This document shows, piece after piece, positions 18,001 through 21,000 of a DNA stretch of 26,967 nt. The stretch comes from a virus (lineage: Duplodnaviria > Heunggongvirae > Uroviricota > Caudoviricetes). The stretch spans positions 1 through 26,967 of the IMG/VR virus record IMGVR_UViG_2541047926_000013; one strand, given 5' to 3'. The position numbers are program-made. The first letter of the stretch is position 1. Each line of letters opens with the position of its first letter.

Positions 18001-21000
18001 AACGCCATCGCCTACAAAGAGCAGCGCGATAAAAAAGGCAGTGAGCTGAAGCAGGCGACTGCCACCATTACTGACATGCAGCAGCGCCAGCGTACTGCTG
18101 ATGCACTCGATGCTAAATACACGAAGGAGTTAGCTGATGCGAAAGCTGAAAATGATGCTCTTCGGCGCGAGCTTGATAATGGTGGTAGGGTGCTCGTCAA
18201 AGGAAAATGCCCTATGCCATCCTCAGCCGAAACCTCCAGCGCCTCCGGCATGGGCAATGATGCCTCCGTCGAACTCTCTCCAGTTGCTGGACGAAACGTT
18301 CTCGGTATCCGGGACGGAATTATCCGCGACCAAACAGCACTGAGAACGCTTCAGGAATACATCAGGACGCAATGCCCGAAATAATTTTTTTGCAAATCAC
18401 AAAGTCCATTTAATGAGCCTCGCGATGCGGGGCTTTTTTATGTCCGCAGTAAACGCGCATCTCACGCGCATATTAACGAGAGCCTTTCAGTAAGCGAGCC
18501 TGAGAAATGCCGTTATAGGTGGCGACCTCTCTCGGGCGGCTTTTCTGTGAGACAGGCTCACTTTCTAAAAGGTAAAGACGCTATGAAAGCAATCACGCTT
18601 TTTAATACACCGATCCGTGTTGATGAATCAGGAATGATCTGCCTCACTGATATGTGGAAAGCCAGTGGTAAAAGTGAATCTGAATCTCCGTACCACTACC
18701 TGCGAAACAAGCAGACCAAAGAGTTCTTAGCCGAGCTGGAGAAAAACCACGAATCTGTGGTTTTTACTGAGCGCGGTGTACACGGTGGAACATATGGCGG
18801 GAAGTTTGTTGCTTACGATTATGCGGCTTGGTTAAACCCCGGGTTCAAGTACGCGGCCTATAAAGTCCTCGATGACTACTTCACTGGAGAACTTCAGCAT
18901 CGCAACAGCTTAAGTGCGCAGCTCAACATGAAATGTCATGAGTTTGACCAGAAGAAAGACATGGCGAGCTTCTGCGGACAAGGGCTGGCGGCATGGCGCT
19001 ATACGAAGCCAGTGTTGGTCGCTGAGATTAACTCCCTGGCTAACCAGCTGCAGATTACGATCCCCGGGCTTCCGGGATGAGTGATCGTGTCATTGAATGC
19101 GCCTCCAGAGCGGGGCGCGACTTCTCAGAGTTCATGAAAGGCGAGAAGGGCATGATGGAAGCATTGGCCTCGGTGGATGAGTTTGGCGAGCAGCTGCGCC
19201 TCAACGGCTGTGTCAATCATCACTTTGTTAGCTACATGATGCGGAACTCGATCATGCAGGCATTCATGGACATGGCAAAAGCCGAGAGGAAAGAAGAGCG
19301 CCGGCGTAAGCGAGCGGAAGCAAAAGCGAAGTAGCCATTACAAAGCCCATCTACGGGTGGGCTTGATAATGAAACCGGAATTTATTCTGGGTAACCAGTT
19401 ACGGCAGTACAGCGATACAACCCAAGCCAGTAAGTGGGGAAATAACACTGGCAGCCACTGAAAGATGAACCTCCAGCCTTATGGCAAAAAAGATTCTTTG
19501 TGGTGGCGGACTGATGGAAAGACATCGGTTATTGCAGAGACCATTCAATGAGTGGTCTCGACAATGGCTTATACCCTACACGGGATAACTTAACTGATAT
19601 CCCTTTTAACGGATAAACGGAGCCAACAATGGCAGAGAATGTCGGCATTATGGCAGTGAAATTTGGATAAATCGGAGATTAGTACATATGCCGCCACGAA
19701 TCCCAAAAGCCTGCCGTGTTCGCGGTTGCCGCCATACCACCACAGATCCGTCAGGCTATTGTGAAAGCCACAAAAGCGAAGGCTGGACGCAATATAAGCC
19801 AGGTCAGTCCCGTCACCAGCGCGGTTATGGTTCGAAGTGGGACGTTATCCGCGCGCGTGTGCTGAAGCGTGACAAAGGCCTGTGCCAGTTGTGCCTGCGT
19901 GCCGGTGTGGTACGTGAGGCGAAAACCGTTGACCACATCATCCCTAAAGCGCATGGCGGCACAGATGCCGACAGCAATCTGCAGAGCCTGTGCTGGCCGT
20001 GCCATAAGGCGAAGACGGCCCGTGAACGGCTAAAGTGATAATAATTCTCAACTGTCTGAGGGGAGGGGCGGGTCAAATCCCTGTGACCTGACGTCTTCCG
20101 GACTGCCCGCCCCATCGTTTTTTTATACCCGCGAAAAATGAAATTTAACCAGGAGTGCCGCATATGGCTGGAACGGCGGGGCGTTCCGGGCGTCGCCCCA
20201 AGCCAACGGCGCGCAAGGCGCTGGCCGGAAACCCCGGCAAGCGAGCCCTGAACAAAGATGAACCTGTTTTTACGCCCATCAAAGGTGTTGAGCCACCGGA
20301 GTGGTTCGCAGAAGAAGATCTCCCTCTCGCCACGATCATGTGGCAACTGACAACCAAAGAACTCTGCGGTCAGGGCCTGCTGTGCGTGACTGACCTAGCG
20401 GTACTTGAGCGGTGGTGCGTGGCCTATGAGTTCTGGCGACGTGCCGTGAAAAATATTGCCAGACAGGGCAACACCATCACCGGTGCAATGGGCGGTATGG
20501 TCAAAAATCCGGAGCTGACCGCCAAAAAAGAACAGGAGTCCGAGATGAGCAGTACGGGGGCAATGCTCGGACTCGACCCCAGCAGCCGCCAGCGTCTGAT
20601 TGGCCTGGCGGGGAAGAAGAAAACCACTAACCCGTTTCTGAAAATCATCGAATCATGAGCCGGAAATCTTACCCCAACGTAAATGCTGCCAATCAGTATG
20701 CCCGGGATGTCGTGCGCGGAAAGATTGTGGCCTGCCAGTTTGTGATTCAGGCCTGCCAGCGCCATCTTGATGACCTGATGGAGGAAAAAAGTAAGTCGTT
20801 TCGTTACCGCTTCGACAAGGACCTGGCTGAACGGGCCGCCAAATTTATTCAGCTGTTGCCGCACACCAAGGGTGAGTGGGCATTCAAGAGGATGCCCATC
20901 ACGCTGGAGCCGTGGCAGCTCTTTGTGATCTGCTGCGCGTTTGGCTGGGTCAATAAAGGCTCCCGGCTGCGCCGCTTCCGGGAGGTGTATACCGAAATCC

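What the first reader, a model, noticed from the sequence alone, without database searches (positions are those of the whole stretch)
18583..19080. Second KilA-N paralog between the lysis cassette and the packaging genes
Two KilA-N proteins with different C-terminal halves are encoded, one in the nin-like region (12809-13606) and one after Rz. The second has its own flanking terminator (18410-18436) and a downstream coupled small ORF. Duplicated anti-repressor-like genes at an insertion-prone late position may act against co-resident prophages.
Basis: partly seen in the sequence, partly recalled or inferred. Interest (0 to 1): 0.35.

Follow-up and report, generated by a model that had tools for sequence, protein, structure and literature searches.

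The report
Known KilA-N cassette behind folded RNA leader
The "second KilA-N gene" is the common, already annotated hkbK-hkbL accessory cassette of lambda/P22-like prophages; the notable part is the conserved, doubly pseudoknotted RNA leader in front of it, which buries the ribosome-binding site and is shared by many unrelated genes in the same slot.

Summary
ORF 18583-19080 encodes a KilA-N + ORF11CD3 protein. It follows an intrinsic terminator (18415-18441) and overlaps, by ATGA, an 85-aa ORF (19077-19334). The protein is identical to HkbK of phage HK620, and the 85-aa ORF matches hkbL. The pair occurs in about 10% of complete E. coli genomes.

It is not a duplication. It shares only 33% identity, over the N-domain alone, with the nin-region KilA-N protein (12809-13606).

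The terminator is the first part of a roughly 170-nt conserved unit, not a private flank. The unit is terminator, GCGC hairpin, then a long hairpin whose base pairs with the Shine-Dalgarno sequence, tied by two covarying pseudoknots. It ends exactly at the ATG. It precedes Rha, KilA-N, T5orf172, ANT, HNH and membrane-protein genes in phages of E. coli, Salmonella, Klebsiella, Xenorhabdus and others, including rha of P22. Rfam has no family for it. The published P22 small RNA "P22F" is its hairpin.

Most likely reading: a late-operon DNA-binding protein of unknown target, transcribed only by Q-modified polymerase and translationally gated by the leader. I found no evidence for antirepressor action on co-resident prophages.

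The gene is already known and the leader is uncatalogued. Earlier agents of this scan found the same leader.

The parts
14575..15369 (+). Q-type antiterminator gene (context). It places everything downstream on the + strand in the late operon.
   Evidence: Pfam Antiterm PF03589, E 1.3e-53.
17917..18384 (+). Rz spanin gene, the last gene of the lysis cassette (context).
   Evidence: Pfam Phage_lysis, E 4e-30.
18415..18441 (+). Intrinsic terminator and first part of the conserved leader unit.
   Evidence: Stem of 9 pairs (6 G-C), loop of 3, then a T-run. A terminator precedes the leader in nearly all related loci I inspected, including HK620, Sf101, Stx phages, Klebsiella phages and P22.
18455..18469 (+). 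P1 hairpin: GCGC, loop AUCUCAC, GCGC. Loop bases 18460-18465 (UCUCAC) form pseudoknot PK2 with the bulge 18547-18552 (GUGAGA).
   Evidence: MFE fold. P1 pairs covary. For PK2, cognate loop-bulge helices average 5.5 Watson-Crick pairs, against 3.7 for non-cognate pairs and 3.0 for shuffled bulges, with 10 or more distinct complementary sequence pairs.
18477..18482 (+). 5' strand of pseudoknot PK1 (CGAGAG). It pairs with 18529-18534 (CUCUCG) in the apical internal loop.
   Evidence: Cognate helices average 5.9 Watson-Crick pairs against 3.1 for shuffled loops. Variant pairs include CCCGAG/CUCGGG, CCAGAG/CUCUGG, CCAAGAG/CUCUUGG, CCAAGAA/UUCUUGG and CCACCGA/UCGGUGG (P22).
18483..18572 (+). Long hairpin. 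P2/P3 pair 18483-18502 with 18553-18572, and the base includes the anti-SD CCUUU paired to the SD AAAGG (18568-18572). P4 pairs 18503-18512 with 18537-18546. P5 spans 18517-18528 with a GGCG loop. The 3' strand carries the bulge 18547-18552.
   Evidence: This is the MFE structure. On 71 distinct sequences, 93.4% of cells are paired and 33 of 38 pairs show changes on both sides, against 10.1 +/- 1.9 in shuffles (0 of 500 reach it) and 8-11 in slid controls. G-U pairs are tolerated, so the constraint acts on + strand RNA.
18583..19080 (+). hkbK-type gene. The KilA-N DNA-binding domain is encoded at about 18601-18885 and the ORF11CD3 helical-hairpin domain at about 18907-19065.
   Evidence: Pfam. 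The protein is identical to HK620 HkbK. The AF2 model has pLDDT 84 and shows an alpha/beta N-domain plus helices 86-130 and 132-156. The best PDB fold match is the yeast Mbp1 DNA-binding domain, but it is weak (E 0.57).
19077..19334 (+). hkbL-type gene: 85 aa with a basic tail, and an ATGA overlap with hkbK.
   Evidence: PHROG 875, unknown function, E 3e-54. No Pfam, NCBIfam or PADLOC hit. Homologous to the N-terminal 68 residues of the T5orf172 cargo proteins of c341 and HK106 (E 3e-11). Present next to E. coli hkbK but absent next to distant KilA-N-ORF11CD3 genes.
19335..19640 (+). Conserved, strongly structured non-coding stretch that forms the 3' border of the cargo slot.
   Evidence: MFE -105 kcal/mol against -73 for shuffles, z = -5.9. 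It is 90-100% identical in 209 phage records, downstream of different cargo genes. The homologous P22 stretch lies within the published sRNA P22G.
12809..13606 (+). First KilA-N gene, in the nin region. It is unrelated in its C-terminal half and has no leader.
   Evidence: Pfam. 3397 homologues. The AF2 model has pLDDT 75 and shows KilA-N, a helical linker and an alpha/beta domain at 176-265, with no PDB match at E < 0.1. The leader model R1 finds only the 18450-18585 copy in the window.

Best explanation
**Shown**
- The locus is the hkbK-hkbL accessory cassette known from phage HK620, carried here by an SfV-like E. coli prophage.
- It occupies the cargo slot between the lysis genes and the packaging genes.
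- A conserved RNA leader borders the slot on the 5' side: terminator, P1 hairpin, and a long hairpin whose base pairs with the Shine-Dalgarno sequence, locked by two pseudoknots.
- A conserved structured non-coding stretch borders the slot on the 3' side.
- Many different genes occupy the same slot behind the same leader.

**Inferred**
- No promoter-like site was found between the terminator and the gene. The cassette is therefore transcribed only when Q-modified RNA polymerase reads through the terminator during lytic growth.
- Translation of HkbK is then held low, or switched, by the leader. The terminator and the hidden SD together act as a double lock against leaky synthesis in the lysogen.
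- The conserved flanks let cargo genes be exchanged by homologous recombination, which would explain the mosaic of occupants.
- HkbK is a late-phase DNA-binding protein. The KilA-N domain would pick the DNA target, and the ORF11CD3 helical hairpin, shared with most Rha cargoes, would mediate dimerisation or contact with a common partner.
- HkbL is a coupled but non-obligatory partner.
- The protein's target and benefit remain unknown. By analogy with Rha of P22 and phi80, which harms phage growth in IHF-deficient hosts, tight control is likely needed because the product is deleterious when over-made.
For: **Cassette identity**
- 98.4% nucleotide identity to HK620 hkbK-hkbL with an identical protein.
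- The coding region is present in 525 of 5426 complete E. coli genomes.

**Late-operon setting**
- Q, methylase, holin, endolysin, Rz, the cassette, HNH, TerS and TerL all lie on the + strand.
- No + strand promoter-like site in 17900-20200.

**Leader shared by different cargo genes and ending at the ATG**
-.
- Census of 126 complete cases: Rha+ORF11CD3 73, KilA-N+ORF11CD3 8, T5orf172 12, other KilA-N 11, plus ANT, HNH and membrane proteins.

**Structure**
- The MFE fold equals the proposed fold, with the SD paired.
- 33 of 38 nested pairs show double changes, against 10.1 in shuffles.
- PK1 and PK2 covary.
- Sequence-diverged copies in P22, Dewey, Leclercia, Xenorhabdus and Pantoea keep every helix.

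**Expression in vivo**
- The P22 orthologue of the hairpin accumulates as the 89-nt sRNA P22F during infection, with its 3' end 6 nt before the rha ATG (PMC13397905). The printed sequence matches L137:1050-1139.

**Cargo needs control**
- P22 late-operon rha is detrimental to lytic growth without IHF (as cited in PMC4936722).

**ORF11CD3 fold**
- It is a two-helix hairpin in the AF2 model.
- It recombines independently of the N-domain.
Against: - Q-dependent read-through and the absence of a private promoter therefore rest on a consensus scan, which misses non-sigma-70 and weak promoters.
- SD sequestration is predicted, not measured. The leader could enhance rather than repress expression, for example through RNase III processing.
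- P22F ends between the SD and the AUG. It may be only a nuclease-resistant decay product.
- Nothing here shows that HkbK binds DNA. The fold match to the Mbp1 DNA-binding domain is weak (E 0.57).
- The R2-derived alignments are fitted to the structure, which inflates the pair counts somewhat, although the slid and shuffled controls are far lower.
Confidence: 0.65

Rival explanations
1. One reading: HkbK is a trans-acting antirepressor that inactivates the repressors of co-resident, heteroimmune prophages and so induces or disarms competitors.
For: - Database names for relatives include 'anti-repressor': P22 rha is annotated so, and PHROG 2127 and 20738 give weak hits.
- Trans-acting antirepressors between prophages exist (Gifsy phages, PMC3121763, listed).
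- Other occupants of the same slot carry an ANT/KilAC domain.
Against: - No ANT, AntA or P22_AR domain in either KilA-N protein.
- Known antirepressors are made early or under LexA or immI control, whereas this gene lies in the late operon behind a terminator with a hidden SD.
- The annotation 'anti-repressor' for Rha is not backed by any experiment I could read.
- The two KilA-N genes are not a duplication.
Confidence: 0.1
2. The cassette is a host- or phage-directed toxic or exclusion function. Examples would be abortive-infection-like killing, exclusion of superinfecting phages or satellites, or repression of a satellite or helper gene as CapR does in Vibrio PLE.
For: - KilA-N matches the candidate defence family PDC-S22 (E 6.8e-9).
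- Rha interferes with phage growth in IHF mutants.
- The Bro-network protein CapR represses a helper phage capsid promoter (PMC10111431; PMC8096241).
- The double lock on expression fits a toxic product.
Against: - The PADLOC hit covers only about 30 residues of the shared domain.
- A function made only late in the phage's own lytic cycle protects neither the lysogen nor the prophage.
- No toxin-antitoxin, nuclease or membrane feature is present in HkbK or HkbL.
Confidence: 0.15
3. The cassette is mainly a selfish mobile unit. Bro-network genes, some fused to or replaced by HNH or GIY-YIG-type nucleases, spread between phages through the conserved flanks, and HkbK has no role in the phage life cycle.
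For: - The same slot holds HNH_3 and T5orf172/MUG113 (GIY-YIG-like) genes.
- Dewey has an HNH gene inserted between the leader and hkbK.
- Exchange points lie exactly at the ATG and in the 3' conserved stretch.
- N- and C-domains shuffle.
- A cargo-less scar exists (L072).
Against: - HkbK itself has no nuclease motif.
- The coding sequence is intact and conserved at 90-100% in 389 E. coli genomes and at 35-40% protein identity out to Xenorhabdus and Pantoea behind the same leader. This argues for purifying selection on the protein.
Confidence: 0.1
4. The leader is not a translational gate. It could be a processing or stability element, a spacer that insulates operon segments, or the precursor of a trans-acting small RNA (P22F type), with SD pairing incidental.
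For: - P22F accumulates as a discrete 89-nt RNA and is enriched in vesicles.
- The long, nearly perfect helix of about 21 + 10 bp looks like an RNase III substrate.
- Some contigs carry two leader copies with different pseudoknot sequences.
Against: - The anti-SD:SD pairs are kept by compensatory changes even where the SD region differs: CACAUAG/CUAUGUG in L053, CCUA/UAGG in L093.
- The element always ends at the start codon whatever the cargo. Both point to control of translation initiation.
Confidence: 0.15

Closest known systems
hkbK-hkbL of phage HK620 (NC_002730, 18129-18880; annotated 'KilA-N domain-containing protein' and 'hypothetical protein')
   Same: - 98.4% nucleotide identity.
- Identical 165-aa protein.
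- Same ATGA coupling.
- Same position after Rz.
- Same leader, 100% identical from 18448 to the ATG.
- Same downstream non-coding stretch.
   Different: - HK620 continues with hkbM/hkbN and a P22-type headful packaging module.
- Here the cassette is joined at about 19638 to an HNH gene, a cos site and a P27-type small terminase.
- No function has been reported for either copy.
rha (ORF201) of phage P22 and rha of phi80
   Same: - Same slot in the late operon.
- Same leader family (R2 hit of 55 bits with every helix and both pseudoknots kept).
- Same ORF11CD3 C-terminal domain ending in IPGL.
- Same downstream conserved stretch.
   Different: - The N-terminal DNA-binding domain is Phage_pRha, not KilA-N.
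- There is no hkbL partner.
- Rha has a genetic phenotype, inhibition of phage growth in IHF-deficient hosts. HkbK has none on record.
P22F small RNA (Naaz et al. 2026, PMC13397905)
   Same: It is the P22 orthologue of the long hairpin of this leader. The printed 89-nt sequence equals L137:1050-1139, from the P3 5' strand to just past the SD.
   Different: - It was published only as an sRNA of unknown function 'partially overlapping ORF201'.
- No structure, pseudoknots, family or link to other cargo genes was described.
- It shares only the fold, not the sequence, with the window copy.
Gifsy-1 isrK-orf45-anrP module (PMC4825925)
   Same: - A structured leader lies behind an intrinsic terminator in a lambdoid prophage.
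- It precedes an antirepressor-like gene that is transcribed but translationally silent until the RNA is remodelled.
   Different: - It has its own mapped promoter.
- It works through an upstream ORF and a trans-acting short isoform.
- It lies next to the Q-like gene, not after the lysis genes.
- The Rfam isrK and C4 models do not match this leader, even at E <= 5.
P1/P7 C4 RNA-ant (immI) and P4 CI RNA/seqA inside the Bro-network gene eta
   Same: RNA-level control of Bro-network or antirepressor genes through short complementary 'address' helices (as described in PMC10111431).
   Different: - Those RNAs act in trans or by transcription termination.
- There is no sequence or model similarity.
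- In this leader both recognition helices lie within one molecule.
KilA of phage P1, and the fungal APSES (Mbp1) DNA-binding domain
   Same: - N-terminal KilA-N domain (Pfam).
- The best PDB fold hits of both models are Mbp1 or PCG2 DNA-binding domains.
   Different: - The fold matches are weak (E 0.3-0.6).
- The C-terminal domains, genome position and regulation all differ.

Membership tests
KilA-N domain proteins (Pfam PF04383) | Sequence match to the family HMM above the curated gathering score | tested here: met
   58.5 bits against a cutoff of 23.8, E 6.6e-16, residues 7-101 covering profile positions 6-106 of 107.
KilA-N domain proteins (Pfam PF04383) | Alpha/beta DNA-binding fold shared with APSES domains | tested here: inconclusive
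   The AF2 model (pLDDT 84) has the expected strand-helix order. The top PDB hit is Mbp1, but only at E 0.57 and TM 0.28-0.35.
KilA-N domain proteins (Pfam PF04383) | Binds DNA | not testable with these tools
   Needs EMSA or ChIP.
ORF11CD3 domain (Pfam PF10549), Bro network | HMM match above the gathering score, in the C-terminal position after a Bro-network N-domain | tested here: met
   50.5 bits against a cutoff of 25, residues 109-161 covering the full profile. The same domain follows Rha in 73 cargo genes of the slot.
HK620 hkbK-hkbL cassette | Near-identical gene pair, overlapping stop and start codons, position between Rz and the packaging genes | tested here: met
Phage antirepressors (P22 Ant, P1 Ant1/2, KilAC/ANT-domain proteins) | ANT, AntA, P22_AR_N or P22_AR_C domain | tested here: not met
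   Neither KilA-N protein gives such a Pfam hit at E <= 0.01. Only weak PHROG hits (E 3e-4 to 5e-4) to families labelled anti-repressor.
Phage antirepressors (P22 Ant, P1 Ant1/2, KilAC/ANT-domain proteins) | Binds and inactivates a phage repressor | not testable with these tools
   Needs expression in lysogens and binding assays.
Moron (autonomous promoter-gene-terminator unit) | Own promoter upstream of the gene | tested here: not met
   No + strand sigma-70-like site between 17900 and 20200. A consensus scan cannot exclude weak or other promoter types.
Moron (autonomous promoter-gene-terminator unit) | Terminator downstream of the gene | tested here: inconclusive
   The hairpin at about 19343-19364 after hkbL lacks a T-run and was not called by the scan.
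Post-lysis pseudoknotted leader (P22F-type; not in Rfam) | Intrinsic terminator, then a GCGC hairpin, then a long hairpin ending at the start codon with the SD paired at its base | tested here: met
   Models R1 and R2 hit 18450-18585 at 152 and 107 bits. The MFE fold shows the same helices with the SD paired.
Post-lysis pseudoknotted leader (P22F-type; not in Rfam) | Two covarying pseudoknots (5' flank with apical loop; P1 loop with 3' bulge) | tested here: met
   In the window, CGAGAG pairs with CUCUCG and UCUCAC pairs with GUGAGA. Family-wide covariation is shown.
Rfam C4 antisense RNA / isrK families | Match to the covariance model | tested here: not met
   No hit at the gathering score in the window and none at E <= 5 in 18350-19720.

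The most novel reading that the evidence does not exclude
The leader would be a previously uncatalogued class of signal-responsive riboregulator.
- It would be a double-pseudoknot switch whose compact fold (PK1 + PK2 + P4/P5) and SD-sequestering rod (P2/P3) are alternative or cooperating states.
- Those states would be read by a host or phage factor such as RNase III, an IHF-dependent factor, temperature, a small molecule, or an excised P22F-type RNA acting in trans.
- It would gate translation of the whole Bro-network accessory-gene slot (KilA-N, Rha, T5orf172, ANT and others) in lambdoid and P22-like phages, including Stx phages.
- The variable pseudoknot sequences would give each cassette its own 'address'.
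Probability: 0.3. Interest if true: 0.75.

Novelty: new variant of a known kind. Interest (0 to 1): 0.4.

Why it matters
**The gene pair.** It is routine annotation: HK620 hkbK-hkbL, function unknown.

**The leader.**
- One RNA fold controls entry into a very common accessory-gene slot of temperate enterobacterial phages, including P22 and Shiga-toxin phages.
- It gives a concrete handle on a long-standing puzzle: why Rha-type genes are harmful in IHF-deficient hosts and how their synthesis is restrained.
- It explains how unrelated genes are swapped at exactly the start codon.
- It gives a structural and genomic context to the small RNA P22F, published in 2026 without a function.
- It also corrects annotations. 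The annotated P22 rha start lies inside the leader, and the GTG 18547 extension here should not be used.

**What remains open.** The biochemical role of HkbK and HkbL is still unknown.

Tried and rejected
**Attempts that gave nothing**
I used a pattern scan of viral contigs, phage records and one genome-contig scan instead.
- Henthorn & Friedman 1995 on rha (PMC177009) is not held. The IHF link is cited second-hand from PMC4936722.
- PDB by sequence: nothing below E 0.28.
- PDB by fold: nothing below E 0.1 for either KilA-N model, so neither C-terminal half can be assigned a known fold.
- NCBIfam: no hit for any of the three proteins.
- Rfam: no family for the leader. A sub-threshold Proteo-phage-1 hit at 19385-19456 (19.6 bits against 42) was set aside as chance.
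- Literature searches for hkbK and hkbL found no functional study.

**Ideas considered and dropped**
- A remnant minus-strand HTH gene in 18440-18560. The stretch is conserved as + strand RNA structure with G-U pairs.
- A conserved upstream ORF in the leader, as annotated in c341 (gene 63). It is not open in the window.
- A K-turn at the 3' bulge. The sequence does not fit the consensus, and the bulge is explained by PK2.
- Testing PK1 by alignment columns. Its register differs by one base between leader types, so it was tested by a best-helix analysis instead.
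Full report
**1. The observation**

The + strand ORF 18583-19080 (165 aa from the ATG) is open. It matches Pfam KilA-N (E 6.6e-16, residues 7-101) and ORF11CD3 (E 2.4e-13, residues 109-161). The ORF at 12809-13606 is a second KilA-N protein (E 2.2e-26) with no Pfam match in its C-terminal 160 residues.

A terminator-like hairpin with a T-run lies at 18415-18441, 30 nt after Rz. An 85-codon ORF (19077-19334) starts with an ATGA overlap on the stop codon of the KilA-N gene. So all four elements of the observation are real.

The word 'paralog' is too strong. The two proteins align only over the N-domain, at 33% identity across 91 residues. Each belongs to its own large family (58 and 3397 database clusters).

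**2. Identity of the gene pair**

The stretch 18416-19638 is 98.4% identical to phage HK620, where the two genes are hkbK ('KilA-N domain-containing protein, similar to P1 KilA') and hkbL. The HkbK proteins are identical. The pair is also found in Escherichia phage Dewey, in Salmonella and Stx-converting phages, and in ECOR prophages whose depositors labelled it 'KilA-N-ORF11CD3'.

The coding region occurs in 525 of 5426 complete E. coli genomes, and 389 of these have at least 80% coverage. The gene context is a lambdoid late operon on the + strand:
- Q antiterminator (14575-15369);
- a methyltransferase cassette;
- holin, endolysin and Rz;
- this cassette;
- HNH, P27-type small terminase, large terminase and portal.

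The prophage repressor is an S24 self-cleaving CI type (8092-8745).

**3. The terminator belongs to a shared leader**

A sensitive DNA search with 18400-18600 found the same sequence in 254 phage records. In most of them the match ends at query base 188, two bases past the ATG, and the gene that follows differs from record to record. I fetched 13 such loci. The same approximately 170-nt unit precedes:
- Rha+ORF11CD3 (Sf101, Lys8385Vzw, Stx2a phages, Klebsiella RCIP0114);
- Rha with another C-terminus (ENT1, PhiR70_1);
- another KilA-N type (SF3);
- T5orf172/GIY-YIG-like proteins (c341 gp65, HK106_064);
- a membrane protein (RCIP0098).

A pattern scan of viral contigs added 120 loci. Among the 126 cases with a complete cargo gene:

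| Cargo | Cases |
|---|---|
| Rha+ORF11CD3 | 73 |
| HkbK type (KilA-N+ORF11CD3) | 8 |
| T5orf172 | 12 |
| Other KilA-N types | 11 |
| Rha with another C-terminus, ANT/KilAC, HNH_3, membrane, unknown | remainder |

**4. Structure of the leader**

The minimum-free-energy fold of 18449-18590 gives a small hairpin (P1: GCGC, a 7-nt loop, GCGC) and one long hairpin. In the long hairpin, CCUUUCAG...GAGCCUG (18483-18502) pairs with CAGGCUC...CUAAAAGG (18553-18572). The SD AAAGG therefore lies in the basal helix. Above it come a 10-bp helix (P4), a 4-bp helix with a GGCG loop (P5), and a 6-7-nt bulge on the 3' strand.

I built two covariance models and aligned 75 hits, 71 of them distinct. The hits include sequence-diverged copies from P22, Dewey, Leclercia, Silvania, Xenorhabdus and Pantoea that were found upstream of KilA-N or rha genes. 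On this alignment:
- 93.4% of cells form standard pairs;
- 33 of 38 pairs show changes on both sides, against 10.1 +/- 1.9 in column shuffles (0 of 500 reach it) and 8-11 when partners are slid by 1-3 columns.

The anti-SD:SD pairs themselves covary. Examples are CACAUAG/CUAUGUG in a second copy in L053 and CCUA/UAGG in L093. G-U pairs are frequent, so the constraint acts on the + strand transcript. As a caveat, the alignment was fitted to the model's structure, which favours pairing. The controls remain far below the observed values.

**5. Two pseudoknots**

*PK1.* The six bases just 5' of the anti-SD strand (18477-18482, CGAGAG) are complementary to the loop 3' of P5 (18529-18534, CUCUCG). 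Across the family the pair changes in concert:
- CCCGAG/CUCGGG;
- CCAGAG/CUCUGG;
- CCGAGA/UCUCGG;
- CCAAGAG/CUCUUGG (Leclercia);
- CCAAGAA/UUCUUGG (Dewey);
- CCACCGA/UCGGUGG (P22).

Cognate helices average 5.9 Watson-Crick pairs against 3.1 for shuffled loops.

The P1 loop (18460-18465, UCUCAC) is complementary to the 3' bulge (18547-18552, GUGAGA). There are at least ten distinct matched pairs, including UCGCA/UGCGA, UCGUAC/GUACGA, UCACCC/GGGUGA, CUGACAU/AUGUCAG and CCGCA/UGCGG. Cognate helices average 5.5 Watson-Crick pairs, against 3.7 for non-cognate and 3.0 for shuffled.

It is open whether both pseudoknots can coexist with the full 31-bp rod or whether they represent an alternative state. 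By rough geometry (my inference), PK1 needs either a sharp fold-back at the bulge or an opened P2/P3.

**6. Is the leader known?**

Rfam 15 has no family for it. There is no hit at gathering scores in the window and none at E <= 5 in 18350-19720, including the C4 and isrK models.

A 2026 paper lists ten small RNAs seen in P22-infected Salmonella. 'P22F' (89 nt, 'partially overlapping ORF201, no known function', 3' end 6 nt before the rha start) has exactly the sequence of the P22 leader hairpin that I located independently at L137:1050-1139. So the element is transcribed during infection, and its hairpin accumulates as a stable RNA. Nothing about its fold, family or role was published there.

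Several earlier agents of this scan reached the same description of the leader in other genomes. I derived the nested structure and PK1 before reading those notes.

The closest worked-out analogue is Gifsy-1 isrK-orf45-anrP. There, an antirepressor-like gene behind a terminator is transcribed but translationally silent until the leader is remodelled.

**7. The proteins**

*HkbK.* The AF2 model (pLDDT 84) shows the KilA-N alpha/beta domain followed by a two-helix hairpin (helices 86-130 and 132-156) that corresponds to ORF11CD3. The best PDB match is the Mbp1 DNA-binding domain, which is consistent with the known KilA-N/APSES relationship but weak (E 0.57).

Within the family the two halves recombine. 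Nearly identical ORF11CD3 domains sit behind KilA-N variants that carry a 14-residue insert, and identical KilA-N domains carry other C-termini. ORF11CD3 also ends most Rha cargoes of the slot. I infer that it provides a common function, either dimerisation or a shared partner, while the N-domain chooses the DNA target.

*HkbL.* It has no family assignment beyond PHROG 875. It is homologous to the N-terminal 68 residues of the T5orf172 cargo proteins (E 3e-11). It accompanies E. coli hkbK but not the distant KilA-N-ORF11CD3 genes of Silvania, Xenorhabdus or Pantoea, so it is not an obligatory partner.

*The nin-region KilA-N protein.* It has a helical linker and a C-terminal alpha/beta domain (176-265) with no PDB match. 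It has no leader.

**8. How it most likely works**

*Shown:*
- the identity of the cassette;
- its late-operon position;
- the shared leader ending at the ATG;
- the covariation-supported fold with the SD paired;
- in vivo accumulation of the orthologous hairpin.

*Inferred:*
- transcription only by Q-modified polymerase reading through the terminator, since no promoter-like site was found;
- translation restrained or switched by the leader;
- a deleterious product that needs this double lock, by analogy with P22 and phi80 rha, whose product blocks phage growth without IHF;
- cargo exchange by recombination in the conserved 5' leader and the conserved 3' non-coding stretch at 19335-19640.

That 3' stretch is 90-100% identical downstream of different cargoes in 209 phages. 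It folds far better than shuffles (z = -5.9), and its P22 counterpart lies within sRNA P22G. One contig (L072) has the leader bulge fused directly to this stretch, which looks like a cargo-less scar.

**9.

An antirepressor aimed at co-resident prophages cannot be excluded without experiments, but nothing here favours it. There is no ANT-type domain. Expression would be late and tightly gated rather than early or SOS-controlled. The two genes are not a duplication.

**10. Verdict**

The gene pair is already known and ordinary, though it has no assigned function. The leader is a real, widespread, uncatalogued structured RNA. It is a new structural variant of SD-sequestering phage leaders, and its mode of switching is unknown. 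It has already been seen repeatedly in this scan and was glimpsed in the literature as P22F.

Noticed in passing
window 19335-19640: The non-coding stretch after hkbL is very strongly structured (MFE -105 against -73 kcal/mol for shuffles, z = -5.9). It is 90-100% identical in 209 phage records, downstream of different cargo genes. The homologous P22 region is part of the published 204-nt sRNA 'P22G'. It forms the 3' border of the cargo slot.
   Followed up: partly
L137 (P22, NC_002371) 1076 vs 1145: The annotated start of P22 rha (GTG, 201 aa) lies inside helix P5 of the leader. The in-frame ATG 23 codons downstream, with SD GAAGG, sits where every other cargo starts and where Naaz et al. place the start. 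Rha is therefore probably 178 aa.
   Followed up: partly
window 19077-19334; L005 1672-2157; L006 1684-2172: HkbL is homologous (E 3e-11) to the N-terminal approximately 68 residues of the T5orf172/MUG113 proteins that occupy the same slot in c341 and HK106, sharing an LRxNGCVN motif. It is therefore a free-standing copy of a Bro-network module.
   Followed up: partly
L093:341-464(-), L017:8510-8627(+), L053:11112-11245(-): Some viral contigs carry a second, diverged leader copy with different pseudoknot sequences in front of another accessory gene: a KilA-N type, a 140-aa unknown protein and a short ORF. One late operon can therefore hold two such gated cassettes.
   Followed up: partly
L072:3782-3916: The leader is truncated right after the 3' bulge and fused to the conserved downstream stretch (GTGCGAA|ACCGGAATTTATTC...). 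This looks like a deletion that removed the SD and the whole cargo.
   Followed up: no
L002 (phage Dewey) 2058-3252: In Dewey the leader (46.8 bits, PK1 CCAAGAA/UUCUUGG) precedes an HNH endonuclease gene inserted directly in front of hkbK. hkbK then has no leader of its own.
   Followed up: no
window 18547-18582: The longest ORF starts at GTG 18547 (177 aa). That start lies inside the leader, in the PK2 bulge and the P3 3' strand, and should not be annotated. The ATG at 18583 is the start.
   Followed up: yes
L139 (JARKOR010000234.1): A 4-kb contig binned as 'Candidatus Nanosynbacter' carries a 94% identical, truncated hkbK, together with hkbL and the leader. It is almost certainly an enterobacterial prophage fragment mis-binned into that MAG.
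   Followed up: no
alignment A1 (HkbK family): There is domain shuffling within the family. Some members combine a KilA-N variant with a 14-residue insert and a near-identical ORF11CD3. Others keep the HkbK N-domain but carry an unrelated C-terminus.
   Followed up: no
window 8092-8745 (-): The prophage repressor is a CI/LexA-like S24 self-cleaving protein. Its own induction should therefore be RecA-dependent and need no antirepressor.
   Followed up: no
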